The translations under genes were made by a program, and so were the position numbers. From the NCBI GenBank assembly GCA_012295275.1, contig CM022667.1, positions 18,228,001 through 18,292,000 on the forward strand: 64,000 nucleotides of DNA. Reading direction: 5' to 3'. Within the stretch, counting starts at the first letter, position 1, and each line of letters starts with the position of its first letter. The notes beneath the pieces were generated by a model, which was given only the letters and a program-made list of their open reading frames with translations, ran no database searches and was not told where the DNA came from. Shown here one piece after another: positions 2,668 to 62,615 of the stretch. The DNA is from Chrysomallon squamiferum (Eukaryota; Animalia; Mollusca).

Positions 2668-5600
2668 ATGTGGTGCAGAAGAGTGCACAATTTAAAATGT
2701 CGCTGTCTGTTATTGGTAAAGCATTCTTTAGTCAAAAGACAGACTCGACTGTACACTGTAGTTCAGCCAGGTGATTTCAATGTGGTTCCAAAGCAGGCTC
2801 GAGTAGTTATTGGAGGTGGTGGTGTTATTGGAACATCTCTCGCCTATCATTTGGCTGAAAGAGGCTGGACTGATGTTGTACTTTTAGAACAAGGAAGGTT
2901 AGTGTTCATTTTTATATCACATTGTTTGGTAATGAAGTAATGTCTGTAATTTTAAAAATCAATATTATTTCAGTATTTTAATTGGTATATTTATTTTGTT
3001 TATAGAGTGCAGAAAATATAATATAAAATAAGTAAACATTTCATTTTCATTTCAGTCCTGGTCAATAAAAATTAAAACTGATTTTCAAACAGAAAAGATT
3101 CTAGTTACATCTAGGTAGTCTAAAATCCTAATATTTTAAAACAAAAATATAAATAAATAATAAATTCAAAACAAAAAATAAATGTATAAATGAAAATTTT
3201 TAAAAATTAATAATAGCAAAATAAAACAGTTCAGATTCTAAAAGTTCCATAAAACTATTAAATTGCACAGAGCTAATGTTTCATTAAAAACAGTTCTGTA
3301 TATTCTATAGATATTTTTATCTTTACCAGTCTGTCTAATTTAATTATGCAAAATTGTAAGTATTTAGATTTTTAAATATTTTAATAAAAACTATACCAAT
3401 TAAAAATATATGTATAAAAAAATATAAGAAAACAAAAAATAACATAAATAATTTAAGAAATTAAACAATTACAAAAAAAAAGAATTTTAAAAGTAAATAA
3501 ATAAATTTAAAAATTTAATAGAATAAAAATATATTATAATAAATTTATATAAAATCATCTTATCAAAACTGATCCAGTTTAAAAGAAAATAAATTGCATA
3601 TAATTTTAATTTTTTTTTTTTAAACTAATGTAAGTGAAATATGTTTTACAGCAAAGATAAAAATAAACTTATAAAGTAATTATTTTAGACTTACCTGTGG
3701 GACAACATGGCATGCAGCAGGTTTGGTTGGAACTGTTCGTGGAAGTGCAGCAGAATCAAAAATTTGTTCTTACAGTCGAGATTTGTACAAGAAACTTGAA
3801 GCTGATGGATATGGCATGGGTAAGAGGTTACAACAGTTTTGAAAATTTATTAATTGTATTTAATGTATAATATACAATATAGTTTTAATGTGATAGAACG
3901 TTGTTATTTTTTCTTCTGTTGATTAACAGTTTGGATGGTGTCTTCCCGACTGGTAGAATTCCCAGTTCGTATAATTCCCATTTCGTAGAAAAAACTTGTC
4001 TACCGCAATACCTGGTTACCTCTGTTTATAATGAACTTGGCCTGTACATACATCTGGTTTCTTTCTAACATTCAGAGGCGGAGCATATTGTTCCTAAATC
4101 AATTATGTAACATACACCGAAAGCAGAATAAGCATTCACTACTCATTTGTTGTAGATTTTTAGTTTTTCATTATGATCATCATCATCTTCATCCTTCTCA
4201 TTATCATCATCATAATCATCATCATCATCAACATTATTATTACTATAATATTATTTCTATTATTAGTGTTGTTGTTATTATTATTATTCATATTCTTCTT
4301 CTTCTTCTTCTTCTTCTTATTATTATTATTATTTAAGCTGGTCATTTCTAATTCATAAACATTTCCTTTCCGTTACAAAACCACCACCAATAATAAACAA
4401 TTTTACATCAATTTCATCTATCTGTTAAAATACAAAAAAAAAAAGAAAAAAAAAGTGGCACGATGTGTTTTTTGTTACTTCTCATGGCTTGCTTCTGTAA
4501 AAGAAAATGACAAAAATATTATAAATAACTAATTTTATTCAGCAATATAATTTAAAAAATACATTTGATATATATGAGTAATTCACTTATAATCAGTAAA
4601 TAGAATATGTGAACGTTACATTTATCATTAACTGTTTGAATTAAACCATATTCAGCTTAAACATGTTCAAGATATATGTTACTGAGCATATTTACGTTAT
4701 GCACACATACATATTCACATTGTGCACTTATTAAACAATATATGTGACATAGTACATTAATAGTATGTACACTAAAAATATTATGACCTGCAAATACTTT
4801 GGCTCTGACTGAAAAAGTTTATGTGAACGACCAAATCATCGGGAATACTTTTAGATAAATACCTTCTTTTTTAATTATTTACATTCACTACATTCGATAC
4901 ATAGATTATTTCAATGCTTTATGCGATAAGCGATATCCATACTACAATAATAGCTCATATTAAAGATGTAATTGGTTCCAAATTTCCGATAGTTAAGTGA
5001 GGTATCGTTTAGTGGGAGACTAATTTACATAGAATTAAGGTTAAAAGCAGTGGTTACTTTCTCGCTGATGAAATTTGACATAAAATGAAAAGGTGAAATA
5101 AGGAGAAATAAAACGACAGTTTAGACATAAATGATTTAATAGATTATAGATATTAAGTAAACAGTAAATCATTTACAAATCATTTATACAAATACATTAA
5201 GAAATAATTATATGTTAATTTTTGTTATAGGTTAATTTTTGTTAGTTTTGGTTTCATTTAAGATAATGTATTTTGTTTCTAAAGTTATTGTCTTCCATTT
5301 CTTTTTATCATCAGCATTTGCTGGTATACTGTTATTCGTTTTGACATACTGGAAGGGAAAATTACAAATGAGTTTAAGTCTAAATCGAAGCAGAAGAGAA
5401 AAGAGAATCAGAATATCAGATGGATGTATGACTGAGAGAAGCACGTGAATGAATGAAAAACAAACGAAAACGGACTGAAAAACATGCATTGTATCCATTT
5501 GTATCATTTATTTTGAGCAATTAACTATTAAATTTCTATTTATATAATTTGTAAAGAAAAAAGATCGTTAAAGTGGGATATCATTAAGCGAGATATTAAT

Positions 5601-8600
5601 AATAATCACTTTCCAAATAATCTGGAACAGTTCATTACAATGACTGAGGTAAAACCAAGCATGTAAGTAAGACCACTGAACCACATTTAGCCTTTCGACG
5701 AAATGGGAATTCTACCAGATGGGAGTAAGCCATTTGGATGTATGTATGTATAATATGGCTTTAATATGATACATGCTGACTTTTTATTTTAACTGTACAT
5801 TCACAGGTTGGAGAGAGTGTGGAAGTATCAGTGTGGCTCGAACGAAGGACAGAATGGTGGATTTCAAGAGAAAAGAAGCACTTGCTAGGTGTCACTCTCT
5901 TAATTAATTAGAAAATTAATTTGGTTTTATATATAAAAATGTTATATTTTAATTTTTTAATATTTTATAATAATTTTGTACAAATGAAAGAGAAAAGAAC
6001 ATGTTGCTACATAAATTTTATTTTGTTTTATTTTATGGTATTTTTTTACAAATGGCTGCTATAAAAGTAAATTTTTATCTGTTTGCTTTTCAGAGCACAT
6101 GGTGCAGATGCTTTTATTGTTAATCCATCAGAAATTCAAAAGTTGTCTCCCTTGATCAACACCGAAGATGTTTGTGTAAGTTAAACATTACAAACAAAAC
6201 CTTGCCACAACCTCAGTTTATGAAAGGATAAAAAGTATTATTCATAGGATAACATTAATCAAATGATGCTAAATTGTAAATCAAAAAAATAAATAATAAT
6301 AAAAATAAACAAAACAACATCCAAACCAATTTGAAATTTAATTAAAGATTGTGATGTTACTGAATTAAATCAAATGCACTAAAGAATATATGCTTATTGA
6401 TATTAATATTCTGCATGTATTAAATAATTTATCATCATTTTATTTATTTTTATACATTCTGAAAATACAGGGAGGTTTGTATATACCTGGTGATGGAAAA
6501 ATCACAGCCCCTGATGTTGCTATTGTATTGGCTGATTTAGCAAAACAGAAAGGTAAAAATGTGTGTGAGTGTGTGTTGGTGTGTATTGGATTGGGACAAA
6601 AGTTCATAGCATTTTTTAAGTTAAATTCAAAGATAGTATTTAGATATTAGTACATGGCTTTATTCAACCGTGTCCATATTGTTCACCACCTTTTGCCATC
6701 TTTTGGATTACATATTCACATATATATATATATATATATATCTAACTGATAACTCATTTTCAGAATCACTAGGATCTATGAACTCTTAATTTAAAAACAG
6801 AAAAATAATAACTTTGCTTTATGTGATTTATTTATTTATAGTTTTTTTTCATGATACTTACTTAAAATGATGTGTAATTTATCTTAAAATATAAATATTT
6901 TTAAGAAAGCATTTGAAGAAGATTTATTTTTAATTTTTCATTTGTCACTGTTCAGGAGTACAGGTTTTTGAAGGGGTGCAGATCAAGAGAGTGTTGACAA
7001 AAAACAAATCACCTCAGGTGTCAGGACTGGAGACATCACATGGATCTATGACTTGTGAATATTTTGTCAACTGTACAGGACAGGTTAATATTTTCACATT
7101 CTTAGCTTCATATATGACAGCTTACTAACATCAGCAGTGCCTGACAGAAATGCCTTTCAATTTGTTGTTGTGTTTTTTCTTTAAGTCAATTTCATGAAAT
7201 GGCACTCTCATATTGTTTAAACATGTATATTTATATATAATAATATAACTAATAATAATATAAAATAACTAATGCAGAAAATAATATTATGCTTTGAATA
7301 ATTTTTTTTTATATTTTCATAAATTACTTTTTATAATATTTATTATTCTTCTATATAAATTTTATTCAATTTATCTGATTTACATGAAAATTATATTTAA
7401 AATCTGATTTACTACACATTTGTTTGTAAAAGTAACAACTTTGGTTCTGTTTAGTGGGCAAGAGAACTTGGAAAACTGTCCAAGCCAAGAGTGCGGGTAC
7501 CTCTACATTCATGTGAACATTTTTATGTTGTAACAAAACCCATAGAAGGAATTGATACCATGCATCCAGGTAATGAACAAATATTTCTTTGAATGTCCTA
7601 CGAGTTAACAGATATAGTTAATTATGTACTTCATTATTTGTTTAGTAATAAGAATTTAATTGAATGAGGCTTAATGAAATATATCTAGTCTCACAATTTT
7701 TAAATTATTTCAGTCTATGTTTTTGAAATTTCAGCAAAAATAATGCCTTACTACTTATTTTCTAAGGAAATTGTACATCATTTGTCTAAAATATCTATTT
7801 TAGTTAATGAAAAAGTAAACGGTTTATCTGACCTCTGTATTTCCTAAGTAACAAATTAATATATACTCTACTGGTTTCATTAAACAAAACAAAAACAAAT
7901 TCAAAAAAAAAAAAAAAAAAATATTTAAACATTTTTAATGGAGAAAGACAGCAATATACATATTACAAATATTTCAGTTATACGTGACTATGATGGTATG
8001 GTATACATTCGTGAATGGAATGGTGGTCTGTTGGCGGGAGGCTTTGAGCCAGTCGCAAAACCAGTTTTTCATAGAGGCATTCCTGACAAATTTGAATTCC
8101 AGCTTCTGCCAGAAGATTGGGATCATTTTCGTATGTAATAATCAGTTCAATAAAATTTATTGTTATTATTATTTTGATTATTATGATTACTATTACTATT
8201 ATTACTTTTTTTTTTTTTTTTAATTTTGTATTATTTTGGGGTGTCAGCTAATTGGAAAAAAAAAATAAAAACAAGTAAAATAAAAAAAATAAAAATAGAA
8301 TAAATAAATATAACATAAAGGTATATAATTTCAAAGATTAGAATTGTTTTTCCAGAAATCCTTCTGGATGAAATATTACACAGATTTCCAATGATGCAAG
8401 ATGCTCAAGTACGTCAACTGATAAATGGACCAGAGAGTTTTACGCCAGATGGCAAAATAATCCTAGGAGAGTCAGCAGAGGTGAGAAAGACAAAGTATTT
8501 TTCTTGTTCTGGTGAGAAAACAAAAAGATATTTTTCTTATATCACCTTTATTATTCCCATTTGTGCTACAGACGACAACAATTTTAATAAATTTGTCAGA

Positions 8601-10048
8601 TTAAAATAGTTAAAAAATCAGATTCAATATATGTCGCATTAAATCAAAAACAAAGTGTCAAAAATAAGAAATTGCATTAGATTTAATTTACAGTGTTCTG
8701 ATACATTGCAAAACAGTTATGTTTTAATGACAAATCTTTAATGAACATGCATCATATCAGTTTTAATTATTATGAAAAATATGTGTGAAAGCTAATTGTA
8801 ATTTTTGAAATACAAAATTTAAATTGACACATTTCCATTCTAGATAGATAATTACTTTGTTGCTGCTGGAATGAATTCACATGGTATTGCAATGGCAGGA
8901 GGAGTAGGTAAATACATGGCAGAGTGGATTATAAATGGCCGACCAAGTATTGACCTATGGTCAGCTGACATCCGCAGATTTGTCAGTCTCCATAACAATA
9001 AACGTTTTCTTGGCGAGCGTGTGAAAGAAATTCTAGGTTAGTTTTTATTACATATGATTTTCTGTATAGCTGGTAATAAAATAAACAAATTCTTATAATA
9101 TGCTATCTAATAATGAAGGGGCTATTTTGATAAGTTATATTACAAAGATAAAATACAAACTGTCAATTACTTTATCCCATAAAGATTATGGGTATCACTG
9201 TCCTTTTATTAGTTGATTGAATAATAATACATTTTTAAAATAAAATTACTTTGATTACTATTATTTTTTTATTTGATTATTACACACACACAAATACAAA
9301 TATACATACACATACACTCACACACACATATGCACACATATAAATACTTAAACACACACAAACACAGGCACTCACATGCATCCAACTATAATGATCTTTG
9401 TCAGGACAACAGTATAGCGTGCCCTACCCAAGAAAGGAATATGTCACTGGAAGAAAGTTGAGAACATCACCACTTCATACCAGACTGGAAGGGTTTGGTG
9501 CCTACTTTGGAGAAACCATGGCCTATGAAAGAGCTATGTGGTTTACTTCACAGTCTGAAGGTATAATTATTTAACAGAATAATTACTTTTGGTTTTAATT
9601 TTACATTTTAAAATATGAATCTGCACAAGTCGTATTATAATAAGAATTGTAACAGAATGGTTAATTGTTACTAAATAAAATAAAAATCAGCGGAAATGTT
9701 TTTTTAATTTTTATTTTATTATAACAAACAAAATCATAGTTTTTATTAAATTCTGAGGTGTCAAACAATTAATAGATAGAAACTTATAAAACTGATGATC
9801 AACAGAACATTTTAAATAAGTTAATCTTTCTTTTGGGTTTAAAGATGAGAAGGCATATAAACCAACTTGGGGAAAACCAAGCTGGTTTGAATCAGTTCAG
9901 GAGGAGTACTGGGCCTGTAAAGAGAGAGTCTGTCTCATAGATATGTCATCTTTTGCAAAATTTGAAATAAAGGTATGTTATTATGAAAGGGTTTAAATAC
10001 ATTGTATAAACTTTTGTCAGGGTTATTGATTAGTTAAGTAATTTAAAA

Positions 10049-10099
<51 letters not shown>

Positions 10100-13000
10100 C
10101 TCTGTCTGCAAGACTTTTGAAATAAAGGTGCAACTTCATTTAATTTATTCAATGAATCTTTTATTTTTTTATTTAAAAATTTGTTCTGTATACATCTTGT
10201 TTGTCTGTGTATGTTTCCTGAACTGTGAAACTGCTGAAATCGTTTAAACCTGGCAGAAATTAGTTACCTGTAGCAATAAACTAATTTTATTTTTATTGCA
10301 GTCAACTGGACCAGGTGCCTTGAAGTACCTCCAGTATCTGTGTTCTAATGATATTGATCAAGAAATTGGGTCTGTTGTGCATACAGGAATGCAGAATGAA
10401 ACAGGAGGTTTTGAAAATGATTGCAGTATAGCTCGCCTGCAGGAGAACTAGTAAGTAATTGACAAATACCCCTCAAACTATCAATTTAACAGGTTTGATA
10501 AATTGCCTTTTAATGGATTCTTTCAGCTTTTTCATGATTTGTCCAGCCACTCAACAAACAAGAGCCTCATTCTGGCTAAGACATCATCTACCAGAAGATG
10601 GCTCAGTCCAGGTTCGTGATGTCACTTCAATGTACTCAGGAATCAATCTAATTGGACCACATGCTCAGCAGCTGCTCGGTGATGTCACTGACATTTCTAC
10701 AGACAGATCTGACTTCAAAGCCATGACATGTAAAGTGAGTTTATTCATTGAAATATTTGAAACGATAAATAAGACAGTTTTGTTTGACATCAAGATACTG
10801 TTGGTTAAATTAACATGAGTTAATTTAAAAATTTATAAAAAAAAAATAATGTATTAATCAATAAATAATCCTTTTCTGTTAAAATAATAAAAGTGAAAAA
10901 GATTAGGCTAAAAGGAATATTTTTTTAATCATAAAATATTGGTAGTGATGTTCACTATATAAAACATTAAGTTGGCGTTTCTGTATTTCAGGAGATAGAT
11001 GTTGGATGTGTTAGTGTTAGGTCACTGTTTCTGTATTTCAGGAGATAGATGTTGGAAGTGTTAGTGTTAGGTCACTGTTTCTGTATTTCAGGATATAGAT
11101 GTCGGATGTGTTAGTGTTAAATCACTGTTTCTGTATTTCGGGAGATAGATGTTGGATGTGTTAGTGTTAAGTCAGTGTTTCTGTATTTCGGGAGATAGAT
11201 GTTGGATGTGTTAGTGTTGAGTCATCATTTCTGTATTTCGGGAGATAGATGTTGGATGTGTTAGTGTTAAGTCATCATTTCTGTATTTCGGGAGATAGAT
11301 GTTGGATGTGTTAGTGTTAAGTCATCATTTCTGTATTTCGGGAGATAGATGTTGGATGTGTTAGTGTTAAGTCACTGTTTCTGTATTTCGGGAGATAGAT
11401 GTTGGAAGTGTTAGTGTTAAGTCACTGTTTCTGTATTTCAGGAGATAGATGTTGGAAGTGTTAGTGTGGAAGTGTTAGTGTTAAGTCAGTGTTTATGTAT
11501 TTCGGGAGATAGATGTTGGAAGTGTTAGTGTTAAGTCAGTGTTTCTGTATTTCAGGAGATAGATGTTGGAAGTGTTAGTGTTAAGTCAGTGTTTCTGTAT
11601 TTCAGGATACAGATGTTGGAAGTGTTAGTGTTAAGTCAGTGTTTATGTATTTCAGGAGATAGATGTTGGAAGTGTTAGTGTTAAGTCAGTGTTTCTGTAT
11701 TTCGGGAGATAGATGTTGGAAGTGTTAGTGTTAGGTCAGTGTTTCTGTATTTCGGGAGATAGATGTTGGATATGTTAGTGTTAAGTCATCATTTCTGTAT
11801 TTCGGGAGATAGATGTTGGAAGTGTTAGTGTTAAGTCACTGTTTCTGTATTTCGGGAGATAGATGTTGGAAGTGTTAGTGTTAAGTCAGTGTTTATGTAT
11901 TTCGGGAGATAGATGTTGGAAGTGTTAGTGTTAAGTCACTGTTTCTGTATTTCAGGATACAGATGTCGGATGTGTTAGTGTTAGGTCACTGTTTCTGTAT
12001 TTCGGGAGATAGATGTTGGAAGTGTTAGTGTTAAGTCAGTGTTTCTGTATTTCGGGAGATAGATGTTGGAAGTGTTAATGTTAAGTCAGTGTTTCTGAAT
12101 TTCAGGAGATAGATGTTGGATGTGCAAGTGGAATACGAGCAATGAGACTGACACACTCAGGAGAAGATGGCTTTATTCTGTACATTCCTTCAGAGGTTTC
12201 TTTTTTCTTTATTTTCTTGTTTTTCTTAATGTATTTTGATGTGAGTATTAATTTGATAAATTAAATTATAGTGATTTTTTATATAGTTTAATGCAGTTCT
12301 GTGAAAAGGAATGATTGTGATGATAAAGTGAAAATATGTCAGTTTACAGTATGATCAGACCACTATATTGTAATTTATTTTTAAAGTTAAAAATGAATTA
12401 AACTCACATAATTTTACATTTTATTAGTTAAATAGTCTACACTTTCAGGAATTCTTTTTTTAAGGAATGTATTTAAACTCTTACTTCATCTTTTTATCTT
12501 AATCTGTGAGTTTATTTACTCTTTCTGTTCCTTTTGAAAAATAATGTTTTATATTAAAACATTTGAATTGTTTCAGTATGCACTACACACCTACGACACA
12601 CTGATACATGCTGGCAAAGACTATGGAACACGAAATGCTGGATACTTTGCTATGAGACATTTAAGGATTGAAAAGTTTTTTGCATACTGGGGTCTTGATA
12701 TCAATATTGGTACAACCCCTATGGAGTGTGGAAGAGAGTTCAGAGTAAAATTAGATGTAAATATAAAATGATAGTTATATATAAATAAGTAGATTATGCG
12801 GCATTTTCTATGCAAAAGTATTTCAAGTTTAAACACAGAAGATGGTTATTATTAGTAAAAGGTGAAACATTGTGACATGTTATTGCATTTTGAACACACT
12901 AAATATGACCACAAACATATACATACATATGTATGTGAGATAAATTTTAATTTCAATTTGAGTAATGTAGTTTTAATTGTTAATGTAAATATAGATCATA

Positions 13001-13485
13001 ATAAAATCTAATTTCTTTGTGGTATCTTCTATTTATAATTACTATTGAAATATGAAATACTGTTGTCATTTCAGAAAGGAGATTTTATTGGCCGAGATGC
13101 TCTGCAGAAACAGAAAGAGAAAGGAATAAGTCAGAAGTTTGTACAGTTTTTATTGGACGATTTTGATGTGAAGCATGATTTATGGCCATGGGGTGGAGAA
13201 CCAATTTATCGAAATGGCAAATATGCAGGACTGACAACAACCTGTGGCTATGGGTTTACTCTTGACCAGATGGTTTGTCTTGGATACATCAGTGACTTTG
13301 ATGAATCAGGAAAATGTCAGGTCAAGACTAACATGAACAAATGGGTCATGGAAAAGGAAGCACAGTATGAAATAGATATTGCAGGACGAACCTTTACAGC
13401 AAAAGCCGGGATCTATACGCCCAAACTGGCCATGTCGACATTTGAAACATCTTTTATCCCGGTACCAGTGCAGCAACCAAAATAG
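2668..13485 (+). CDS. PDPR: Pyruvate dehydrogenase phosphatase regulatory subunit-like mitochondrial flavoprotein (GcvT/DMGDH/SARDH family), 17 coding exons, ~880 aa
   Basis: GT-AG exons read by hand: 2668-2897, 3689-3819, 5807-5888, 6094-6175, 6471-6552, 6956-7083, 7455-7569, 7978-8130, 8356-8480, 8844-9036, 9405-9560, 9845-9972, 10302-10450, 10527-10734, 12106-12195, 12577-12756, 13075-13485 (2643 nt, frame-consistent). Basic N-terminal presequence and FAD motif VVIGGGGVIGTSLAYHL. PDPR-type segments VCLIDMSSFAKFEI, RIEKFFAYWGLDI..TTPMECGREFRVKL, DLWPWGGEPIYRNG and YEIDIAG. Orthology versus a PDPR paralogue needs a tree. Confidence 0.88.
3936..5732. mobile_element. Non-autonomous TIR DNA element (Mutator-like) in PDPR intron 2
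   Basis: Imperfect ~35-bp TIRs: left tggtgtcttcccgactggtagaattcccagttcgt versus reverse complement of right tggcttactcccatctggtagaattcccatttcgt. Subterminal repeat aattcccatttcgt. Flanking direct repeat tttgga(tg) at 3930 and 5733 (TSD of 6-9 bp depending on boundary). No recognisable ORF. Superfamily call is inference. Confidence 0.7.
4171..4331. repeat. Compound trinucleotide microsatellite (ATC)n/(ATT)n/(GTT)n/(CTT)n
   Basis: Seen directly; accounts for the poly-I/H/L/N/K ORFs at 4031-4358. Confidence 0.9.
10050..10095. repeat. (CA)23 microsatellite in PDPR intron 12
   Basis: Perfect dinucleotide run. Confidence 0.97.
10977..12124 (+). repeat. 50-bp minisatellite (22 units plus a terminal partial unit) built from the PDPR intron14/exon15 junction
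   Basis: Consensus gtttctgtatttc(a/g)g-gagatagatgttgga(t/a)gt-gttagtgttaagtca(c/g)t. Units start every 50 bp from 10977 to 11427 (unit 10 is 64 bp), then from 11491 to 12041. The terminal copy at 12091 holds the real acceptor and runs into exon 15 (EIDVGCASGIRAMRL). Confidence 0.97.
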
Positions 13486-18839: not shown

Positions 18840-19686
18840 TCAAATCAAATGTTGTGTACTTTCGCTGGAAATATTAGACTCCAAGGAATTCTGTGATCCA
18901 TGGTGAGATCTTTGGCTAGAGTGAATTATCTCTCTTTCAGAGTTTGGGTTTTCTGCACTGTTCTTTTTGTGTGGACTCTCTGAGGCTGGTAGGGACACAT
19001 TGTCTAAAGATATACTAGCACTTGCTGTGTCACTAAAGCATTCATCATGATTGTAACTGTCTGTTGACTGTTCTATCACAGCTGTTTCATTATCACTACT
19101 CTTGGCTGAGCTGGACCGCCATGTGGCAGTCACAGTAGAAGCTCCAGTCATGTCAATGTGTATTGAATCATCATCACATACTATGTTTTCACAGCCAGCA
19201 CTTTCCTCATCTGAATCACTAGAAATAGAAGGTGGAATCAACTGTACCATAGATGACCTCTCACCAGCAACTGGTTCATTTGTATTGTCTAAAGAAATTA
19301 ATGGAACATCATCTGGTGTTATTTCTATATTTGGATCATGTGTCTCTCGATTACCATGTGATGCATTCTCTGGATTAAGAGGAAGAGGTCGGTTTCTAGA
19401 AGCTTCTAAATGGAGATGACGGAAAAAATTCTGAACTTCGTTGTATGGAGCACTGGTTCTCATAGCCTCATTATATGATGGAGGTGGGGCTCGTCTGCGA
19501 ATAAGTTCTGCATGCACCCGACTTAGAGGTGTCTCATATCTTCCACTGTTCTGATCCTGCATTCTTAGTGCATATACTTTACAGGTACATCCTAGTGCCA
19601 CAACAAGCAGGAGGGAACAGACCATGGACCCAACAACAGCTGCTATTATTACACGTGGTGTGCTAACTGAAAACAACAAGGCAATT

Positions 19687-19771
<85 letters not shown>

Positions 19772-22700
19772 TATTTACATGATTTTGTTCTTATATATGA
19801 TTTGAAAACAAATGAATTGGGCAATTTAAACACCATCTGCCTTGCAGTTGGCAATTATTGAACTGAAATCGCTATTAAAACATAGATGAACAAAGCCAAA
19901 CAGATATCATTTTTTTTTTTTTTTTTAAATACAACAATATAAGAATAATTTTTGAATAACTTAAATAACAAATACTATATAAACAGAAATGTTCCTTACA
20001 GGTACAATTTTCTTCATCAGAATTATCTCCACAGTCATTGGTTCTGTCACAAGTCCACCACTGGTATATACACAAGTTATTCTTACACAAAAACAAACCA
20101 ATATCAGCACTGCATTTTTCTATGGCTGTGTCAGAAACGGAGAAGAAAATCAGTTAATAATTAGTGAATAATCATTTTAAACATGTAACAACATATTTGC
20201 TTTTAATTTAAAAATAGGTATACAGTAGAGAAATTCTCTACCAATCAGCCTGCTTCACAGTTATGTCTATTTGTTATTATGTATTATTCTAGAATATATA
20301 TGTCTGTCTGTCTCTCTGTCTGTCTGTGTGTGTGTTATAATTTTATGTAACTAATATATAACAGTTGCATTAAAACTGGGAGATATTGTGTGTATCTGTT
20401 ATTATGTAGAATATATATCTGTGTATGTGTGTGTGTCAGTTATAGTTATATGTAACTAATATATAATAACTGCATTAAAACAGACTTTGTTCTCTGGGAT
20501 ATATTTTATACTTACTACAGTTGGTCTCATCAGCATAACTCATACATGTGTGGTTGCCATTACATCTGTCTCTCATCTTATAACACTGTGCTGTCTTGTG
20601 TCCACAACTAAAGGAATCTTTATTACATTCATCTAAAAAAGTCATATGTATAAGATTATTTCAGTGACTGCATTTTATCTAATAAACATATAAATTCTAT
20701 CCTTATCATTTCAATACCATTTTAAAAATGATTTAAAAAAAGGTATTTATAAATAGAATTGCGTATATAAAATAAAAAAAGCAACATCAGAACATATATA
20801 TGCTAAGAAAGAAAATATTTCCTGAGGTTTTCAGGTTATGAACATTATAAATAAAATCATGTCCTATGCATCCAGTTTTTGCACATTTAAAGAAGATCCA
20901 AATACTAACAAAAAAGTGTGGATGTCTGATACAATTATTTAATACATTTACCACTTTATAATACAAGTAACAGGACAGTATAGACACTAATAATGATACA
21001 TAGAAGAGTTTGTTATAACATTAGGCTAGCTTATTCTTTCACTTTGATTAATCATTTTTCTACAGTATTGTAGCAGGCAAAAATTAAGAATTAAAAATTA
21101 CTGGACTCATGACTGATACTAACCACAACCTCTTTCATCAGCACCAAACTGTTTGCAGTCCCAAAACCCATCACATCTCTGACTGTTATCATAGCAGTCA
21201 ATATCTCCCAGACCACAAAAATACTGATTAGGCAGACAGTAACCTGAATGATAAAAAATGTTTATTACTCACTGAAAACAGAACAAATAGCGAAATAACT
21301 TTATTCTTCAGAAGAAAAAATTCAGTCAACTTTAAAAATTAATTTAGTTATGTTTCCATGATAATCTTTAAAAAAATTAGCATGTTATAAAAGATAAAAT
21401 AAAAAAGGTAATAAATAAGGTGTACAATTAAACCTTTTTGTTGAAAACTAGCATTAAATCCTTTTTCTGGATATTTATCATCTGAATGGAAGTGTACAAG
21501 CAACCAATTGCTAGTTGATTCTATCAGTGGAGGTGGACGATTTTTGCCATCATATTTTCCTATGATGTTACTGTTTTCATCTTTTCCATCATACACAATC
21601 ACATAGTCTGTGTCCTTTTCATTCTGCATTATCCAAGTAGTGAATCGTAACTGAATAGTTTTTGTTGGATACGACAGATGAAGTCGCCAATCACAGTCCA
21701 TGTTGTTTGGATAATCATTTGGAAAATTTGGGCTTGAAAAATGCCCAGCTGGACCATCAAGGTGTTTGCTACATGTCTGAGAATCTGAAACAAAATAAAA
21801 CATGTTAAAAAGTGCTGAGAAATAAAAAAAGATCGCTACAAAGGGTTGATGATACAAACACAACCAACTGATGTTTATAAAAACAAAGAACAAACTCCAA
21901 CCCCAAAAATACATTTATACATTCTGTCTTTTCAAACAATAACATATGTAAATGTATTTTTTTAGTTACAGAGTTAAATTAAACTGGTGTGCTCATCACT
22001 AATCAAAACACTTGTTGCTCTGCTGAGAATATAAAGTATGAGGTTTATTGAGAAATTCCCACAAGCTCACTCTGATATAACAACATATTAATCTATGGAA
22101 CAGATCTAAAACAAATTACCAGTAGTAATAATTACCAGTATCACAAAATAATGATGATTCATCAATGCCATTAGCACAGTCTTTGTGTCCGTCACACTGT
22201 ACAGATGGATGAAAACAAAATAATATGTGACTTTCAGCAGACAGACACTTGAAGTTTGGACTGACACACTGCTCACTTGGAGGATCAGTTGGGACTGATA
22301 TCGTTGAACCACAGAATCTTTCATCTGAGTTGTCACCACATTCATCCAGCCCATTGCATTCCCACTTGTCATAAATACATTTTTGATTTGCACACACAAA
22401 TTCATTTTCATCACAGCTCCTTTTTGATGGTACAAAACCTAAATACATAAATTAAAATATCTGCACTATGTAATTATATAACAATGCTTAACTACTATAA
22501 TATAAAATGTGTTATGTTTTAAACAACAGTCCTTATTAATTACATAAATTAATTTTTTTTTTTTTTTTTTATATTTATAGTATAATTTTGCAATTCTGTT
22601 GCTGTTTGCATATCAGTTATCAAAACAGGAAAAAAACATACATGTAATACATTTGACACTTGATTGGTCCCTCAACTAATAATTTAATGTACTCACCAAT

Positions 22701-25700
22701 AATGTAATTAAGCTTGAATCCACGACCCCTATTTTCACTATCAGTGACAAATCGTAACCATATATGGTCTTGTCTTATTGTTGTTATAAAAGGTTTTGGA
22801 ATATATGACCCACAGTATCTCTGAGTTTGTATCTTTTGACCCTGCACTGGACCAATCTCTAGAAAATCTTGATTACAGGTATCATTGTAAGTTGTTTTTA
22901 TATCCATGTAGTCAAAGCTGAAACAAATGAAGAACTTTAATCATTATTTTGATTAATGTATATTCTTAGAGACATATTACAAAGTAGAAACAGTTTCTAA
23001 TTGCTGTGTCAATGACAAATACATGAGAAATTATGCAAATTTTAGACATATGTATTTTATTTATTTTTATTCTGTTAAACAAATTTTTGTTTTACATTAT
23101 TTCAAAAGTTAACTGATGTTCGAAATATATTACATCACACATTTTGCACATATATCACAGGAAACGACTAAATCTATAATTGATGCAACCCTTTTATGAC
23201 AATCAGTACACTGAAATCTCAAGTTTCAATAATTTACTGATCTATGTGAATTCCAGGGAAAGGGATTTCATCAATTTTGTTAAATAGAATAAATGTAATA
23301 AAGTTGCTTACCTGATTGTTACAGTTGCATTCTGCTTTCCAGAAATACTCCAGTACTTGCAGTAATTATTTGAATATAAATATTCTGAGGGATCGCTTAC
23401 AATTGTTCCTTGATAGTAATTCCTAGTTTCTGTTTCACATTCTGCTGTAAAAACATTTACAAGATATTATTATATACTGTCATCTTTATTAATCTTATTT
23501 GACAATATTATCATTCCTATCCAATTAAAATAATGTGTGTATGGGTTTTTGTATCTCTGTACTTGTGATAAAAATTCAGATACACCTAAACTTATGAATC
23601 ACATGCAGACACATGCATAAACATACACCCCCATTTGGATCTAGTAATAACATATAATGATATATAATAGTTATTATATACTGAATTTTTGTCAAATTAG
23701 CCAACAAATGCAGTAACTATAAACAATCTACCTGCAATGAAACCATTCAATAAAACTAGTAAACAAATATATCTGTTACAACCAGGCAAGTCATTAAAAA
23801 AATAAAAATAAAACTTTTTTGTTGGTTTTGGTTGTTTTTTAAATGGTTGTGCATGTCCATGTTTGTGTATGTTAGTGGTGTGTTCATGTACGTTTGTGCA
23901 GGTATCTAAAAACAGTCTTTTGCAATGGCTGTCTTATTCAGTTTTACCTAATAAATTGTGAGTGTATATATATACACATTTCTTCTTTTCTTTCTTTTTT
24001 TATTATTTCCTTAAAACCCTGGGTTTCAATATTATTAGGTACATAATCCACTCAGTTATCAATATATTAAGTAAAAATAGTATAATTTTTTTTAAAGTAT
24101 AGATTACAATATGCTTTCTTGCATGACTAAACACAATAAATATCAATTTATAAAACATCAGTAGCTTAGTTTGCAGGTAATGTTATTCAATATCACTTGT
24201 AACTTGGTACACTGCTTAATCGCAACATAAAACTGATATGGTCTGTTAACTGAAGGATAATATGGCTGTTGGTTTAAAAAAATGCTATAATAATATATCA
24301 TGTATAGCTTTGATAAAATGTAACTGACAGAGTATGACTGCATAATAAATTAGTCAAATATATTTTAGGTACCAGCAACCTACTTTTTAATTAATTTAGT
24401 CTTATATAATATGCCTAAAAATAAGTTAAAAATAAAAAATGTAGAAAAATACAAACAAATCATTACGAATCCATTTCTATAGGTTCAAAAGAAACATGCA
24501 AATCAGCACCACATATAATTTGTTCATTTTCCACCATTATTTTGGCAAATTGAAGGAAAAAACATATTTGGCCAACTGAAGTTTGAAAAATAACAGTCCT
24601 CTGGTGGTAAAAGCAAAGTTACCCCACTGATGTTAATGTGACTGCTGTATGCTCCCATAGGATCCATGATCATGATCCTGTCAAGGCAGCTATTGAAAGC
24701 CAGTGTGTGCTCATCCCTGAAGGAAAAAGTCCTGACCAACAAAATAAGACCTGCTCAGATCCTGGCTAAAGGTCTACAAGAAGCACCAAATACTGTCCAT
24801 GCTAACCTTAGGAGAATGGACACTTTGAAAAGAACTAACTATTGGCAGAATTGGGGAACTCCCCTGCCCATCCTGAGCCGGCATCTCAGCACAGTTTGGT
24901 GATTAATAGTGATAAAGCTGGTGATAAGGATGATACCCAGTCTTTCCTCATTTTTCCTTCTAAGTATCTCCCATAATAATTGATTGTGCTAAACAGATGT
25001 GCTAAATTGTTTTTAATATAGCTGATTTAGAATTTTTTTTTTTTTATCTTTTTTATTTATTTACTTATCAGAGATTCCCACTCCTATCCAACCATTTACA
25101 CACATATATCATAACCTAAAATTAAAAAAAAATCAGTAATTATAATGAGCATTTGTCCTATATCTCACTTTACAGGTGAGCAATTGTCTGTACACCAGTA
25201 ATCAACTTATTCTCTGAGTGGAATAGATAGTAATTGGCAAAACATCAAGTTAATGTTTATTTCTGAATGTATTCATATTATACACAGTAAAAACTGAACA
25301 TGGCAGAAAAATATGCAACTAATTATAAAAATATAAATGCAATAATTTTAAACAGTGCCAGTCCTTTCTTACTGCACATAAAATGTAGGAAACAGAATTT
25401 ATAGCAATTTAGCTAAGCATGTGCTACTTTCAAATGCATTTTTGTTCTATGCAAAACATAGTGTAGTGTTGAACATTATTTAAAAGATAACTGAATAAGC
25501 CTTTATCTGATTATCATGACAGTTTATTACTCCATGCTATGAATGGCTGAATTTGTTTACCCCCACCATGTTTAACACTCTTGTACATAGGACTTATTTA
25601 ACATACAACAAAACACCACCACCATTTAAACAAAATCCACATAATCTTTATTTCCATATATATTTTTTCTTGTTATGTTTTATTTGGGAGTGGAGGAAAG

Positions 25701-28900: not shown

Positions 28901-31900
28901 ATTATTAATTTCGTTGAGTTTTTCTTTTTATGTTTATTCCTCATTTATATTGAGAACAGTGAATAACAACGTAAAACAAAGAAGACCAGTATAATTTTTT
29001 GATTAGTATTTTTTATAAAGAATGTCATCATGTTAAAGTCATTTACTTATTTATTTTGATTATCATTTTATTACTACTACAGGTTTTTTCAATACCATTT
29101 CATATACAGTTTGTTAACAAAACTAATGTATCCTATTTTTATTTGTACAGCATTTAAATAATTTATCAGTCTTTAATGTAGATGTATGTTTGTTACAAAC
29201 TATTTGTAATCTTGCATTGACTGGATTTCACAAATGGAATTCTTATTATTAATAATATTAAGTTATATAAGATGTTTAATAATAAGCATTTATAAAACAA
29301 GAAGAAAATAATAAACTTACTTTTCCGTAACTTACTGTATAATAGAATAATGCTCATTAAAAAATTATCTGTTTATGTAACAATTTCAGAACATGAAATG
29401 AATCAGTGATTCAGAAGAAATGATCCTATCTGACTGTATTTTATACCTGTGAACAACAGACAAATACAAATTCTTTAATAAAACATGAAAATAACCTACA
29501 GCTTGAAGCAGCATGTTTTCAGTTGATGTAAAGCATGAAACATCAAGTTAAAATTCATTTTGAAGAATGATGTGAATTTGAAAGAAGTTAGTCAAAAAGG
29601 CAAACATGATTGTCAACAAACTGATTCAAAAATCTCGAATCTGATATCAGATAACAAAAAGAAATATTTGGAATTGATATGAAAATAGGCAGTTTTGAGC
29701 AAAAAGAAACTGATGTATTAGAACAAAATGAGTTTAAACACAATATTCCAGAAACATGTTATGATGAAACAAAATACACAAAGTCTAACAAATGTGTAAA
29801 ATGTCATTATTGCAGCCATTATAGAAATGATGTCGATCACCTCAATGCAAAGCATTTGAAAGAAAAGAAATTCAAATGTCCAAATAATGGATGTGATTTT
29901 GTCACAAAATGGTGCAGAAATATACAACATCACATACTTATCCAGTGTCGAAAGGCCACATGAATGCCACATTTGCTTTTACAAATTCAAAAGGCTTGGG
30001 GATCTAAAATATCATCTCTGTCACCATAATGATGAGAAACCGATATCTTGTGACGTGTGATTTTCAATGCAAAACAAATTATGAGCTCAGTTGTCATAAG
30101 CTCAAACATTCTACAGTCCGTAAATTTGCCTGCACATTTCCAGATTGTAAGCAGAAGACAAAAACAAAATCTGATTCGACCAAGCATATGAAAACACACA
30201 CCAAAGTAAGATTATTTATCATTTATATCATTACTAGATAAACTTGAACTTATAAAGAATAATAAAAAAAAGAATTAAGCTATAACATTTTATTTTGGTT
30301 AAATTATGTTTAAAATAGTAATTATAATTAAATTAGAGTGCTTGAAAATGTTTGGGATATCAATGATAGCTCTATAAACAAAAATGTTTTTTCCGTTTTT
30401 AGGTTTATGATTATCTCTGTCCTCAATGTGGAAAAGGCTTTTATATGCAAAATAGCCTAAAATGATATGGAATGTCATCCAGACAAAAGGAATTATAAAT
30501 GTGATTTGTGCACAGTCTTTTAAAACAAAATCCACTATCAGGGCACATATGCAAATGCACAATGGAGTGAAGCCTTGGACATGTGAAATCTATTCACAAG
30601 ACTTTCTTAATAAATGGAATATGATAAAACAAAAAAACTCATGATGAAAATCGCCCATATAAATGTCCTATTTGTCCATATGGTGCAAGAGTTCGTGAGC
30701 ATCTACTAGGCCATATAGGAGCCATGCATAATAAAGGTTTTTCTTATTACTGTGAAATTTGTAAAAAGCCATGGAAGAGATTTAGCCAGCTACAAATTCA
30801 TATAAAACACATGTACAGAGGAGCTGATCTTCACTGTTTAGGAACTAGCATGAACCTAAATATTAAATTGAAACCAGAATTGAATGGTGACTGTGTAAAA
30901 ATAAAACAACGCAAGCACCAACATGGACTATCTTCTAAAACAAAATGTAAACCTCATTGTCGTGCAGATGTCATAAAAGATAACCATAAGGATCCTGTCA
31001 CAACTGATGATGTTTGTTTTGGTAAGGAAAGAAACCCAATTCCCGGTTTATGAATCCAGAAAACATGCAAGGAAAAGCATCAGAAAAGCATCAAGCCTAC
31101 TTGGAAATGAAAGAACGTAACTGTGAGAAAAAATATGGGTACAGATCAGGCTGGCTTAGGTTAAGAAAAAGGTCAAAAGCAAAGGTTTCTCATCTTACTT
31201 TACCAGAATTGAAATGTTCAGATACAGATAAAAATAATATGAAAGAGATAACCAGTAGTAACAGTAATACAAAAAATAGAGTTTTAGATAGAAAGAAAAC
31301 ATAATTCTGTGGAATTGCTGATAAAAGGTAAAAAGAAATTGATGATAATGAGAAAAAGTAACAGACATCAGCACCATCAGAAGAATTTTTTAGTGAGTCT
31401 GTTGCAGCAGTTCAAAGTAATTTTTACAGTAGAAGTGTTAGACTATTGGGTAAACATTTGAGTGCTGAACCACAGCAAAACAATACCACTTGCCGAATTT
31501 TTTCTTGTTCTCTACAAAATAGCAAATTCAAACAGTCAGAAAATAGTTATCCAAAAAGAAATAAAATTGAAAATATTGTAGACAAGTTAAAAGGTAAAAA
31601 AGTTGATTCTTAAAATGCATAAGTGACAAAGTTTCACCAAACCTGCAAAAGAAAAGTGCAGAAACCCCAAAATTCAAAGGCTGAAAAGTCTGCAGACGGT
31701 GTCTCAAACATTCAGCAAATAACTTTAGCAGAAGAAAGACAACAAAGTTCAAATGAATCAGACATTTTCTGAAATGAAAAAGTATAAAATACCTAAATCA
31801 GACATTAGGATTTTCAAATCTAATTTAAAACCAGATAAATATGAAAATGTAAGAAAACCAGACAAGATTAAAAATAATGAGAAAAAGGTTCTTGGTAAAG

Positions 31901-32505
31901 ACAATGGTGCAAACAGTATTTCCTATAATTCAGAGGTTAAATGAGTTTAAAAAGTTGGAAAGTGCAAAGATGTTATTAATATTTGTTTGAAAAACAAACT
32001 ACTTGATAAAATTGCCAATTACCAGTCTGTGAAAGATGAATTAACTGATGATTTTTATCTCTCTATTAATCCTCGATATAAAACTCAAAATTCAATTATA
32101 TCTGTGATGAATCAGAAACCTGTATTGCAGAAAAGATGAAACTAAAAATGAAAAGTGTATAAAGCCCAAAATAAAAAAAATCACCTATCAGGATAAATTT
32201 TGAAAACAAATTTACAGATGCAAAGAAAATGAAAAAAATTAATGGTACTAAAAATGTCAATGGGTCATTCCGTGTCAAATCACCCCCCAAAAAAAAGAAA
32301 TTTAAACCCAACCGTCTCAGATTTTTATAAAATTTGGTATACTTGTTGACTGGGGTCCCACAGCACCAAATCTGAAATGTTAGCCCAATCAGACCAGTGG
32401 TGTGGGAGATATGGCCCACCGAATTTTGAGATTTTTGTCAACCTTAGAACCCTCATATCTCAGGAACTACTGGGCCAATCTTCATAAAATTGGTATTGTT
32501 AGAAA

Positions 32506-33143
32506 GGCAAAGTGACAAGGATACCAAATCTGCCATTTTTGTTTAGTTTGGAAAATACTGGAGTACCTTGACCTTCTGACCTTTGCTATGACCTTGAAAT
32601 TGACCGTGTGGATCACGTGATCTTGAGATAACCTTTATTGAAATTTAATCTCCCACATGTTAACTAAAACATATAAAAGTTTCCTGGCTGTAATATTTTT
32701 TGTTTAGCCATTTATAGATTTAAAAAATGCACATACATGAAAATAACACCTTTTCAGCCATTAACATCTGATTAACTAAAACCTGAATGATCAATTCTGG
32801 ATGCTAGGGATCACCATCTTTCTTGGCAAAGTGACAAGGATACCAAATCTGCCATTTTTGTTTAGTTTGGAAAATACTGGAGTACCTTGACCTTCTGACC
32901 TTTGCTATGACCTTGAAATTGACCGTGTGGATCACGTGATCTTGAGATAACCTTTATTGAAATTTAATCTCCCACATGTTAACTAAAACATATAAAAGTT
33001 TCCTGGCTGTAATATTTTTTGTTTAGCCATTTATAGATTTAAAAAATGCACATACATGAAAATAACACCTTTTCAGCCATTAACATCTGATTAACTAAAA
33101 CCTGAATGATCAATTCTGGATGCTAGGGATCACCATCTTTCTT
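32506..33143. repeat. 319-bp direct tandem duplication inside the left TIR
   Basis: 32506-32824 and 32825-33143 appear identical by eye (ggcaaagtgacaaggatacc ... caccatctttctt). Confidence 0.93.
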
Positions 33144-33165
33144 GATCATCAAGTAAGACATTGTA

Positions 33166-33987
33166 GGCCTACATGTATGCATAAAGTTCACATAAATTTG
33201 AGAGAACTAGGTGTTTCTGATGCTTAACCTTCTCACTATGTTTGTTTCAAATGATCACTGTATCCTTCATTCCCAGACACATTCTACTGTTCTCATCACT
33301 TTCATAAAATTGGATTATTTCCTCCTTCAATTCATTGTCCTTTCAATGGTAAAGGGTTACAAAATCAAGATTTGCACACACTCTGGGTAGGATTCAGACA
33401 TTAAGATGTCATTTTAATGTTACTGTAGCTGATGCTAGTTTTTTCTGTCCTTTCATTCATTTACTGGAATGTGCTAATGAATGGAGTTTGACAGGAGTTT
33501 CGCCTAAACTCGACAGAATAGAATTCAAATCAAAGTCCTTTTCTGGGGAAACAACAACCAGCGGTTTGCCTGGTAAGTTATCATCAAATTCTCCCATTGT
33601 AATACCACCCATTTTAAAGCCATCCTCTGCAGGACTTTTGATTTCTGAAGGGTAATCAGACAGTCACAGCACAACTTGTCTCCTGGCACTAGTGTCTTTG
33701 GAGGATTTACTAAGCATTTGTAAGTGCCCATGCTAACAATTCTTAAAGATCTAGTGTGTACTTGCTCAGGGTGGCGATTAAGGGGATCACAACAGTTTTT
33801 CTGCAATGTTGAAAATTTGATGAAAAGTTCTTGTTCATGATACTCTTGATGTCCCGTATTTTGATCCCACTTCAAAGAGTGAGGAGTTCGACTTCCTCAG
33901 TTTTCCATACACTTCGCAACAACTCCTTTTTAATATGATGGTGTTGATAACACACATTTTCAGGAGAGTTAAAGCTGCAGTTAGCCC
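33166..33987 (-). pseudogene. Truncated, frameshifted transposase N-terminal half (no catalytic core visible)
   Basis: After an acceptor at 33988: ANCSFNSPENVCYQHH..ELLTL, EYHEQELFIKFSTLQKNCCDPLNRH..LVPGDKLCCDC, SLGETPVKLHSL, EEIIQFYESDENSRMCLGMKDTVII*..KHQKHLVLSNLCELYAYM*, then TIR sequence. Confidence 0.75.
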
Positions 33988-45600: not shown

Positions 45601-47024
45601 CTTGACGACTTGAATTTCAAGTTGAATATGAACCACGTGCGTAGATGTTAACAAACAATATGTCGATTAAAGTAATCTATACAGTTATTAAACAATATCT
45701 ATAGCTGATGTTGTGTTCCGAGAGATGCACAATAACATATATGTTTTGTTTTTTTTCCTTTAAATTTTAATACATGAATACACTTTCTCGACTTCTGCAA
45801 TCGAGCTTTCCAGTATGAAATATAAATTCGTTTGGTTGTGTTCAATCGTGGCAAAACCAAAACCGGTTAACAATTTAACACTACTATAACTTTTATAAGG
45901 CTGTGAATCACTTTCTACTCACAAGAAACAGCCGGTATTGGGGACGAAACACTGGGTAATAAATATTTAAAACATTTGTTTTAATTAATGTATACTGACT
46001 GTATACTTTGATGTCAAATGGTTTTATTATTATTATTATTATTTTTAGTTTTAGTTTTATTACAACATATTTTATATATATATTTTCTATAACTGAAACC
46101 TTTGGATTTTCAATTAACATACCGTGGTACCTCGAGTTACGAGTGCTCCAACTTACGAGTTTTTCGAGTTACGATCAGGCGATCTGTCAGTTTTTTGCTT
46201 TGAGCTGCGAACCAGAATCCGAGTTAACAGCGAGCTTCGGATACGCCTCCGCTGGTGGCGTATCGAACAATACAACATTTGCCCAGCATCTCGCGTCTTA
46301 CTCGATTGTTTCACGTGGTTATCTCGCCGTGGAAGCATCTCTGTTGTGTTGTGCTCGCGGTTTGTGCAGTATTTTGCCAAATTTACGTTGATCCTAAGAA
46401 AATGAGTGCAAAGGACAGTACTGAGAGGAAACGGATGATGAAAGCATGAAATCATAGAAAAAAATAACCTGTGAACCATGAAAAGATGGAGAAACCCTAA
46501 CCCTGTACACTTTACAAAACCAATTTAGTTCTTTACACTATCTTTTATTATTTTTTTTTTTTTTTATACATATTTGTCATTTATACATACATTTTTATTT
46601 AAAAACACGTTACAAAAAATTGGGGTGGTTTTTGGGGGGCTGAAACGGATTAATGGTATTTCAATTAATTTCTTTGGTTAAAACTGGTTTGATATACGAG
46701 CTCGGTAAACTCGAATTAAACTCGTGAGACGAGGTACCACTGTGTTTAATGAATTTTGCTTGGAATGTTTTATTACAGTTATGTTTATGCATCATTATTA
46801 TGCATTATCATGTTTTGAAAATTGTCAGACTTGTAAATCAGTTTAAAATGAATGCTTGTCTCAACAATTTTATTCTCTAAACATATTTCTGATTACAAAA
46901 AAAACGGATCCAAGACGTAAAATATTTTCCATCAAATGACCTTTCTAATAATCGAAATGAGCGCCCTCTCTCGGAAAATACACGAGAGTTCACCAGCTTG
47001 ACAAATACATCAGTTTATTGTGAA
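45601..47024. promoter_or_regulatory. Bidirectional promoter region of BOP1 and CDYL (1.4 kb ATG to ATG)
   Basis: Head-to-head start codons at 45600 (-) and 47025 (+); CpGs are retained. Confidence 0.7.
46122..46742 (+). mobile_element. Second Tigger/pogo MITE of the same family, inside the BOP1-CDYL promoter interval
   Basis: ta|ccgtggtacctcgagttacgag ... ctcgtgagacgaggtaccactg|tg. Shares gatcctaagaaaatgagtgcaaagg and atggagaaaccctaaccctgtacacttta with the reverse complement of 38134-38834. Confidence 0.85.
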
Positions 47025-61960: not shown

Positions 61961-62615
61961 CTAGCAAAGTAAGAGAGGTTACTTACAAATGGAATAGTGG
62001 GCAAAGGCATAGTTATTATTTTATTACTTCACTCATTTTAAATTATAGCTCCTGGGAAGAATTTATTTGTTTACTTTAATCTTCTACAAGGAATATTTTT
62101 ATAATTTAGAATATCAGATATCCTGTCTTTAATAATATTAAAATAAACTGCATATGCCCTTTGCTTCATTGCAAAAGGTAATTTAAATTAACATATTTAC
62201 AATTTTTAAAATTTTTAATTTAAAAAAAGAAAACTTAATCTTCAAAATAAGGATACTGAGAATGAACCGAGAAATTTTAATTGCTACAGTCTGCAATTTC
62301 AATTCTCCAAGCTATTTATTATCCAATATTTTGGGGGGTAAAATGTTTGCATAACAAATTTATTAATGAAGTACCTTTTTTCGATGAAATGTATAATATT
62401 GTAGACTGGTGTTTTCTAATGGTTTATTTAATTTAATTTTTTTTTTTTTTTACCTTTATGAACATTGATTCATATGACATTCAAAAATAAATAAATAAAT
62501 AAAAAAAATAAAATAAAAAATGTTTTTCAACTATTTTTGTATTCCTTGAAGTAACAGATGGCACCATATGATATAACTAAATAATGTATATGTATATATA
62601 TATATATATATAAAT

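What the first reader, a model, noticed from the sequence alone, without database searches (positions are those of the whole stretch)
10977..12124. A 3' splice site amplified into a 22-copy decoy array in front of an essential PDPR exon, with most acceptors changed AG to GG
Seen: the 50-bp unit is 32 nt of intron end plus the first 18 nt of exon 15 (EIDVGC). Units 1, 2, 3, 10, 12, 13, 14 and 20 keep ttcAG; units 4-9, 11, 15-19, 21 and 22 (14 of 22) read ttcGG, including the two nearest the true acceptor at 12104-12105. Using a decoy AG and reading on meets a stop early in the next unit (unit 1: ..ttc agg aga TAG). Established: the acceptor AG is near-invariant. Inference: the most common variant in the array sits on the one base that silences a decoy, suggesting selection on repeat turnover, or a copy-number-variable dial that shunts transcripts to NMD.
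Basis: partly seen in the sequence, partly recalled or inferred. Interest (0 to 1): 0.85.

Follow-up and report, generated by a model that had tools for sequence, protein, structure and literature searches.

The report
Snail splice-acceptor "mirage" repeat in PDPR
The boundary between an intron and an exon of a mitochondrial metabolism gene, probably from a vent snail, is repeated 22 extra times, 14 of them without the AG splice signal, yet the spliced transcripts seen use only the last copy, so this is a repeat type already known from lancelets and is likely tolerated rather than a control switch.

Summary
The array is real. A 50-bp unit spanning the PDPR intron 14/exon 15 boundary gives 22 decoy acceptors (8 AG, 14 GG) before the true one at 12104-12105, and 4 of 4 DNA runs laid hold it in many copies. 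Spliced contigs from 4 of 4 RNA or RNA-like runs join exon 14 to the last copy; no decoy-spliced contig was seen, but contigs drop rare forms. This is a known class, the amphioxus 'mirage' (PMC3087553), whose supplement already shows the same cAG>cGG change in 3 of 6 copies of one haplotype. This scan noted similar arrays in other genomes (27, 53; unchecked). GG is not the commonest variant: -28 A>G (21 of 21 internal units) and -8 (22 of 22) exceed it. AG copies are not depleted near the exon, and neutral turnover loses AG this widely in 6-14% of simulated arrays. Contig patterns point to length and sequence variation between samples. Most likely a tolerated VNTR spliced out by exon definition. 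Weak selection against decoys remains open (about 0.33); an NMD dial has no support.

The parts
2668..13485 (+). PDPR gene (pyruvate dehydrogenase phosphatase regulatory subunit-like), 17 coding exons, 880 codons from ATG 2668 (start codon chosen by frame, not shown by RNA)
   Evidence: open frame across 17 exons, 84.7% identical to Gigantopelta P0001 over 789 aa; Pfam DAO, FAO_M, GCV_T, GCV_T_C
10527..10734 (+). Exon 14; donor AAA|gtgagt after 10734
10735..12105 (+). Intron 14, 1371 nt, of which about 1130 nt is the array
   Evidence: RNA contigs skip it
10960..11010 (+). Copy 1: AG acceptor (10990-10991) with ordinary intron upstream and 19 nt identical to exon 15; likely the original acceptor
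   Evidence: left junction present in DNA runs X1, X2, X4, X5
10977..12124 (+). 50-bp tandem array, 22.7 copies: 22 decoy acceptors (8 AG at 10990, 11040, 11090, 11440, 11554, 11604, 11654, 11954; 14 GG, each making a CpG and a GGG triplet) plus the true acceptor
12075..12079 (+). TTAAT with A at -28 (12078), branch-point-like; all 21 internal copies have G here, copy 1 has A
   Evidence: function as branch point not tested; the motif is in 7 of 15 other PDPR introns against 34% background
12104..12105 (+). True acceptor AG
12106..12195 (+). Exon 15 (90 nt, phase 0-0, begins EIDVGCASG), inside the GCV_T domain region
   Evidence: junction peptide identical in P0001

Best explanation
A 50-bp stretch across the PDPR intron 14/exon 15 boundary is tandemly repeated, leaving 22 spare acceptors inside intron 14 that the spliced RNA contigs skip, likely because only the last copy sits one exon length (90 nt) from a donor, and the AG-to-GG change likely spread through the copies by ordinary repeat turnover. 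Shown: the array, its variants, and splicing of exon 14 to the last copy in four libraries. Inferred: (1) slippage or unequal crossover copied the boundary, so copy 1 keeps the old intron context and the last copy keeps the exon; (2) exon definition, possibly helped by the only TTAAT branch-like motif at -28, picks the last AG; the nearest AG decoy would need a 240-nt exon; (3) one A>G mutation was copied between units like the +16 and -17 variants, perhaps helped by GC-biased conversion; (4) the array still changes length and make-up between individuals.
For:: X8 (one 2327-nt contig, depth 16.2) and X9 (1048 nt, 12.1) run exon 14, then the 19 shared bases, then true exon 15 letters; X7 (3061 nt, 43.7) starts at 12106 with exon 14 letters before it; X6 shows the same loose end. 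Minor intron-13 retention was visible in 2 of 3 of the RNA-like runs (3.4 vs 10.2; 9 vs 23.2), so forms of about a quarter survive in these contigs. Eight decoys keep AG, and 5 of those 8 score above the true site on a 15-intron matrix (10.1-11.6 against 8.5), yet splicing is normal. No positional gradient of GG. Neutral model: AG lost in at least 14 of 21 units in 144 of 2279, 242 of 2307, 335 of 2342 and 247 of 2406 kept arrays. -2 shows all four combinations with -22, -17, -11 and +16, as expected from exchange between units. Published mirages keep many AG/GT signals without disturbing splicing (PMC3087553, PMC3902484 passages).
Against: The two commonest derived variants are both A>G at splice-signal-like adenines (-28 in 21 of 21, -2 in 14 of 21); neutral chance 0.1-0.3% for three preset sites and 1.6-2.6% for a wider set of seven, though the sites were picked after the fact. 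GG creates a CpG in a CpG-poor gene (observed/expected 0.39), against the usual decay direction. The same cAG>cGG change is in 3 of 6 copies of one amphioxus haplotype. The inferred extra terminal copy in X2 and X4 is GG although only 6 of 30 comparable duplication starts give GG (one event). All RNA evidence is contigs, which drop rare forms and cannot show NMD-degraded ones. The exon-definition step was not tested.
Confidence: 0.6

Rival explanations
1. Purifying selection on repeat turnover: alleles whose copies keep both AG and the branch adenine leak into stop-containing transcripts, so variants that disable them (-2 A>G, -28 A>G, -22 A>G) are favoured; the new GGG triplets might also push the spliceosome to the last site.
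For: Four of seven intronic adenines of the unit have an A>G variant, none of five exonic ones. Top two derived variants are at -28 and -2. GG persists as a CpG. Same change in amphioxus BflGb6. The extra terminal copy inferred in X2/X4, which has the -28 A, is GG. G runs between duplicated acceptors promote the distal site in CBS 844ins68 (PMC1802585 passage).
Against: 8 AG decoys persist with no gradient. The branch motif is unproven (7 of 15 introns against 34% background). AG loss alone has a neutral chance near 10%. The second amphioxus haplotype keeps AG in 3 of 3 copies. Run X5 has a depth profile shifted toward the AG-type register (ratio 1.02 against 0.21-0.24 in X2/X4; 0.19 for an all-GG and 0.61 for an all-AG model), a weak hint of an AG-richer allele; its letters were not visible.
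Confidence: 0.33
2. A copy-number dial: the number of AG copies sets how much PDPR RNA is shunted to nonsense-mediated decay.
For: All 8 AG read-throughs hit stops upstream of two more junctions; length variation is inferred.
Against: No decoy-spliced contig in 4 of 4 RNA or RNA-like runs; no conservation, expression or phenotype evidence; published mirages give no aberrant mRNA.
Confidence: 0.04
3. AG copies act as in-frame 18-nt microexons (AG, six codons, then gttagt), adding short repeats to the protein rather than stops.
For: gttagt follows +18 in 22 places in the array and is the donor hexamer of 2 of 16 PDPR introns; these sites score 5.6-6.2 against 4.9-11.6 for true donors.
Against: Contigs show exon 14 joined to one copy of the shared bases and then exon 15; homologues have no insertion here.
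Confidence: 0.02
4. Assembly artefact.
For: No long read spanning the array was seen.
Against: Both junctions and many array pieces occur in DNA runs of three studies; summed array depth is 40-95 times single-copy depth in 4 of 4 DNA runs; 18 distinct types among units 2-23.
Confidence: 0.01

Closest known systems
Amphioxus 'mirage' minisatellites: Adh3, globins BflGb6/BflGb9, troponin C, PGBD5 (PMC3087553 passages and Additional file 4; PMC3902484 passage)
   Same: Tandem copies of an intron 3' end plus exon 5' start; normal splicing kept; not all copies keep AG; length differs between haplotypes; edge units escape homogenisation; BflGb6 haplotype 1 has cAG>cGG in 3 of 6 copies.
   Different: Here a mollusc, a 50-bp unit in 23 copies (BflGb6: 150-160 bp, 3-6 copies), 14 of 22 decoys GG, and a second A>G at a branch-point-like site in all internal copies.
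Human CBS 844ins68 (PMC2630376 and PMC1802585 passages)
   Same: Duplicated intron/exon junction with two 3' splice sites; the distal one is used and the upstream copy is spliced out.
   Different: One extra 68-bp copy with an intact acceptor; G runs between the sites were shown to drive the choice, which is untested here.
Human F7 intron 7 37-bp VNTR, with IFI6 (6-16), CBS intron 13, LMNB2 and PDGF junction minisatellites (PMC1557585 abstract, Introduction, Discussion)
   Same: Polymorphic minisatellite that repeats a splice site; the copy next to the exon is used.
   Different: Donor side; F7 pseudo-sites are identical to the real one; in 6-16 and CBS two pseudo-sites are also used.
Intron creation by tandem duplication (Rogers model as cited in PMC3087553; PMC3265369 abstract; PMC2812944 Results part 1)
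   Same: Internal tandem duplication at exon-intron boundaries changes gene structure while the mRNA stays intact.
   Different: No new intron here; an existing intron is lengthened about sixfold.

Membership tests
Mirage minisatellite | Tandem repeat whose unit spans an intron-exon boundary | tested here: met
Mirage minisatellite | Regular splicing kept despite repeated splice signals | tested here: met
   4 of 4 RNA or RNA-like runs; major form only, since contigs drop rare forms
Mirage minisatellite | Many but not all copies keep the splice dinucleotide | tested here: met
   8 of 22 keep AG
Mirage minisatellite | Length instability between haplotypes | tested here: inconclusive
   Contig pattern in X2 and X4 is reproduced by a heterozygous one-unit duplication starting at 12049-12054 and by none of the other 39 of 45 starts tried; inferred from lengths and difference counts, letters not seen
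Mirage minisatellite | Exchange between inner units with divergent edge units | tested here: met
   copy 1 differs from the others at 9-13 of 50 positions, inner units from each other at 0-8
Mirage minisatellite | Somatic instability (reported for Adh3) | not testable with these tools
   needs single-molecule reads from one animal
PDPR (DAO + GCV_T family) | DAO, FAO_M, GCV_T and GCV_T_C domains in an open frame; best hits named PDPR | tested here: met
   (5 of 17 exons scanned)
Regulated unproductive splicing (poison acceptor, NMD dial) | Stop-containing isoform detected and raised by NMD block | tested here: inconclusive
   not seen in contigs; no NMD-block data, no raw reads
Regulated unproductive splicing (poison acceptor, NMD dial) | Conservation of the element in related species | not testable with these tools
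   no genome held; no match in metagenome contigs

The most novel reading that the evidence does not exclude
Selection on splicing fidelity steers minisatellite turnover: in boundary-spanning arrays, A>G changes that remove the acceptor adenine and the branch adenine, and create G triplets, are repeatedly amplified (here -2 and -28; the same cAG>cGG in amphioxus BflGb6), so repeat-unit variant frequencies give a direct readout of selection against cryptic splice sites.
Probability: 0.3. Interest if true: 0.62.

Novelty: new member of a known kind. Interest (0 to 1): 0.27.

Why it matters
As it stands it extends lancelet mirages to a mollusc and gives a clean natural test of 3' splice-site choice among near-identical sites. 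If a survey showed that splice adenines are lost more often than chance in such arrays, it would make a hard question, how strongly selection acts against cryptic splice sites, measurable from repeat-unit frequencies. The recurrence of the same change in amphioxus makes that survey worth running. This one locus cannot decide it.

Tried and rejected
No whole genome is held, so the genome-wide test of boundary repeats could not be run; in the window no second boundary-spanning array stood out (exons of the other genes were not mapped). No copy of the unit in metagenome contigs (0 matches). RNA structure hiding the decoys: 4 of 4 folded 140-nt stretches were no more stable than shuffles (z 1.12, 0.71, 0.53, -1.10). 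Branch point as proven discriminator: motif in 7 of 15 other introns against 34% background, so only a lead. Rescue of GG copies by nearby AGs: the +3 GAG and +7 TAG score 1.5-2.3 and 0.0, below all 15 training acceptors (5.8-15.2), so GG does remove the good site. Copy number from summed contig depth: X1 94.8 against 103 simulated, X2/X4 about half of simulated, but the tool states that this is no copy number and my laying rule is an imitation; rejected as a measure. Two runs of another organism held next to none of the words; no evidence either way. Simulation timed out; one search kept only 10-40 of 3000 arrays per setting and was not used; one search dropped arrays outside 11-17 variants (kept 2279-2406 of 4000). 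The original Adh3 mirage paper is not held. Searches for a paper on selection against splice sites inside such repeats: one search found none, searches listed nothing on it by title and abstract start; the library is partial, so this does not show absence from print.

Full report
Observation. A script found 23 acceptor-like copies; 8 of the 22 upstream ones keep AG (1, 2, 3, 10, 12, 13, 14, 20) and 14 read GG. A 22-base pattern matches 23 times against 0.00 in shuffles. Read-through from all 8 AG copies meets a stop, 6 of them five bases into the next unit's exon part.

Gene. The last exon finds 78 proteins at E<=1e-10, the best being Gigantopelta PDPR-like at 86%. Seventeen exons form an open frame of 880 codons, 84.7% identical to P0001, with Pfam DAO, FAO_M, GCV_T and GCV_T_C in the 5 exons scanned. 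The exon 14/15 junction peptide is identical in P0001. The window is therefore probably from a vent snail related to Gigantopelta; the species is not established, and essentiality was not tested.

Anatomy and origin. Copy 1 has ordinary intron upstream that resembles the unit only from about -29, and differs from other copies at 9-13 of 50 positions, against 0-8 among inner copies. I infer that copy 1 is the old acceptor and that duplication moved the exon 1.1 kb downstream. Using the two edge copies as the ancestral state, about 14 derived variants segregate. The commonest are -28 A>G (21 of 21 internal copies), -2 A>G (14 of 21), +16 T>A (13) and -17 (12, two alleles); -8 is private to the true site. 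So GG is not the most common variant. It shows all four combinations with four other sites, no significant clustering (runs P=0.10) and no gradient: 4 of 11 AG in each half. GG makes a CpG in a gene body with CpG observed/expected 0.39 and a GGG triplet (sequence).

Reality and variation. Nine of 11 listed runs, from three studies, hold the stretch, all as contigs. I laid 8 of the 9 on two flanking stretches. X1 covers 10110-11033 without a difference (it may be the source of the window). Array-derived contigs sum to 40-95 times single-copy depth in X1, X2, X4 and X5. In X2 and X4 the exon contig starts at 12074, with a 55-nt identical piece at 12049-12103 and a 55-nt piece at 12074-12124 with two differences at about half depth. 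A heterozygous one-unit duplication starting at 12049-12054 reproduces these lengths, places and difference counts; none of the other 39 of 45 starts did. That extra copy would carry the true site's -28 and -8 alleles but GG. In X5 the exon contig starts at 12099, as predicted for heterozygosity at -8, and its depth profile differs from the reference model. These are inferences from contig geometry; the letters were not shown.

Splicing. X8 and X9 (RNA on record, one study) each have a contig running from exon 14 through the 19 shared bases into true exon 15 letters; X6 shows the same loose end; X7 has a contig starting at 12106 with exon 14 letters before it and a joint to exon 16. X6 and X7 have no library record and behave as RNA. 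No contig joins exon 14 to a decoy continuation. Retention of the 76-nt intron 13 was visible at about a quarter in X9 and X6, so moderately minor forms survive; rarer ones may be dropped, and NMD would deplete decoy products. Unspliced array-derived pieces occur in X6, X7 and X8 (for example X8 10852-11037, depth 3.2), which may be pre-mRNA or DNA.

Why the last site. On a matrix from the 15 other PDPR introns the AG decoys score 8.8-11.6 and the true site 8.5, so local strength does not explain the choice. The true site alone gives a 90-nt exon to the donor at 12195; the nearest AG decoy gives 240 nt, the others 540-1204. It alone has a TTAAT at -28, but that motif is in 7 of 15 other introns against 34% background. 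Folding gave no signal. Exon definition is established knowledge (recalled; also discussed in PMC1557585) and is my preferred, untested mechanism.

Selection or turnover. In a neutral conversion-and-mutation model, arrays with 11-17 variants lose AG in at least 14 of 21 units in 6-14% of cases, 10-12% among those with 2-4 high-frequency variants; the simple exchangeable figure is 0.08-0.12. That is unremarkable for a feature picked out by eye. The top two variants both falling on AG or the -28 adenine has 0.1-0.3%, or 1.6-2.6% for a wider set of seven sites, but those sets were chosen after seeing the data. GC-biased conversion (recalled) could also favour A>G. Persistence of a CpG, the GG extra copy in X2/X4 (6 of 30 comparable starts) and the amphioxus parallel keep selection alive at about one in three.

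Known systems. The class is in print as 'mirages' (PMC3087553: listing, passages, Additional file 4; PMC3902484: passage). I took the term from earlier scan notes and then checked it. That paper says many but not all repeats keep AG/GT and that splicing is regular; its supplement shows cAG>cGG in 3 of 6 copies of BflGb6 haplotype 1 and 0 of 3 in haplotype 2. Human parallels: CBS 844ins68 (PMC2630376 passages; PMC1802585 passages) and F7 intron 7 (PMC1557585 abstract, Introduction, Discussion). Also seen: PMC2812944 (outline and first half of Results) and PMC3265369 (abstract). The Adh3 paper was not available and may say more on AG loss. Earlier scan notes list eight similar arrays in other genomes and one with all copies lacking the signal; these are unchecked.

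Verdict. A real, tidy, probably polymorphic mirage in a snail PDPR intron that is spliced out normally. New member of a known kind; interest 0.27. The open point is whether splice adenines are purged from such arrays more often than chance, which needs many arrays.

Noticed in passing
window 10451-10526: The 76-nt PDPR intron 13 is retained in a minor contig in 2 of 3 RNA-like runs (about a quarter of the depth).
   Followed up: no
window 32282-35405: Long inverted repeats (97-100% over several hundred bases, with a 319-bp direct duplication in the left arm) flank about 1.6 kb with ORF fragments; related copies at 62616-63242. Looks like a DNA transposon.
   Followed up: no
window 29655-31944: Clusters of C2H2 zinc-finger-like reading frames broken by frameshifts or stops; motif recognised by eye.
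   Followed up: no
window 18840-23933 (-), 37077-45176 (-), 48509-51455, 57158-62028 (-): Neighbouring genes recognised by eye from ORF translations (recalled names, no search): an LRP12/CUB-LDLa receptor, a BOP1-like WD40 gene, a chromodomain/CDYL-like gene and an LPCAT-like acyltransferase.
   Followed up: no
window 38193-38417 and 46476-46701: Inverted pair of a degenerate repeat with pogo/Tigger-like reading fragments (family name recalled).
   Followed up: no
window 12216, 12702: Run X5 differs from the window by a T insertion at about half depth and a C>A at full depth.
   Followed up: no
P0001, P0002: Gigantopelta has two PDPR-like proteins on contigs of the same length, about equally similar to this gene; possibly a local duplication.
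   Followed up: no
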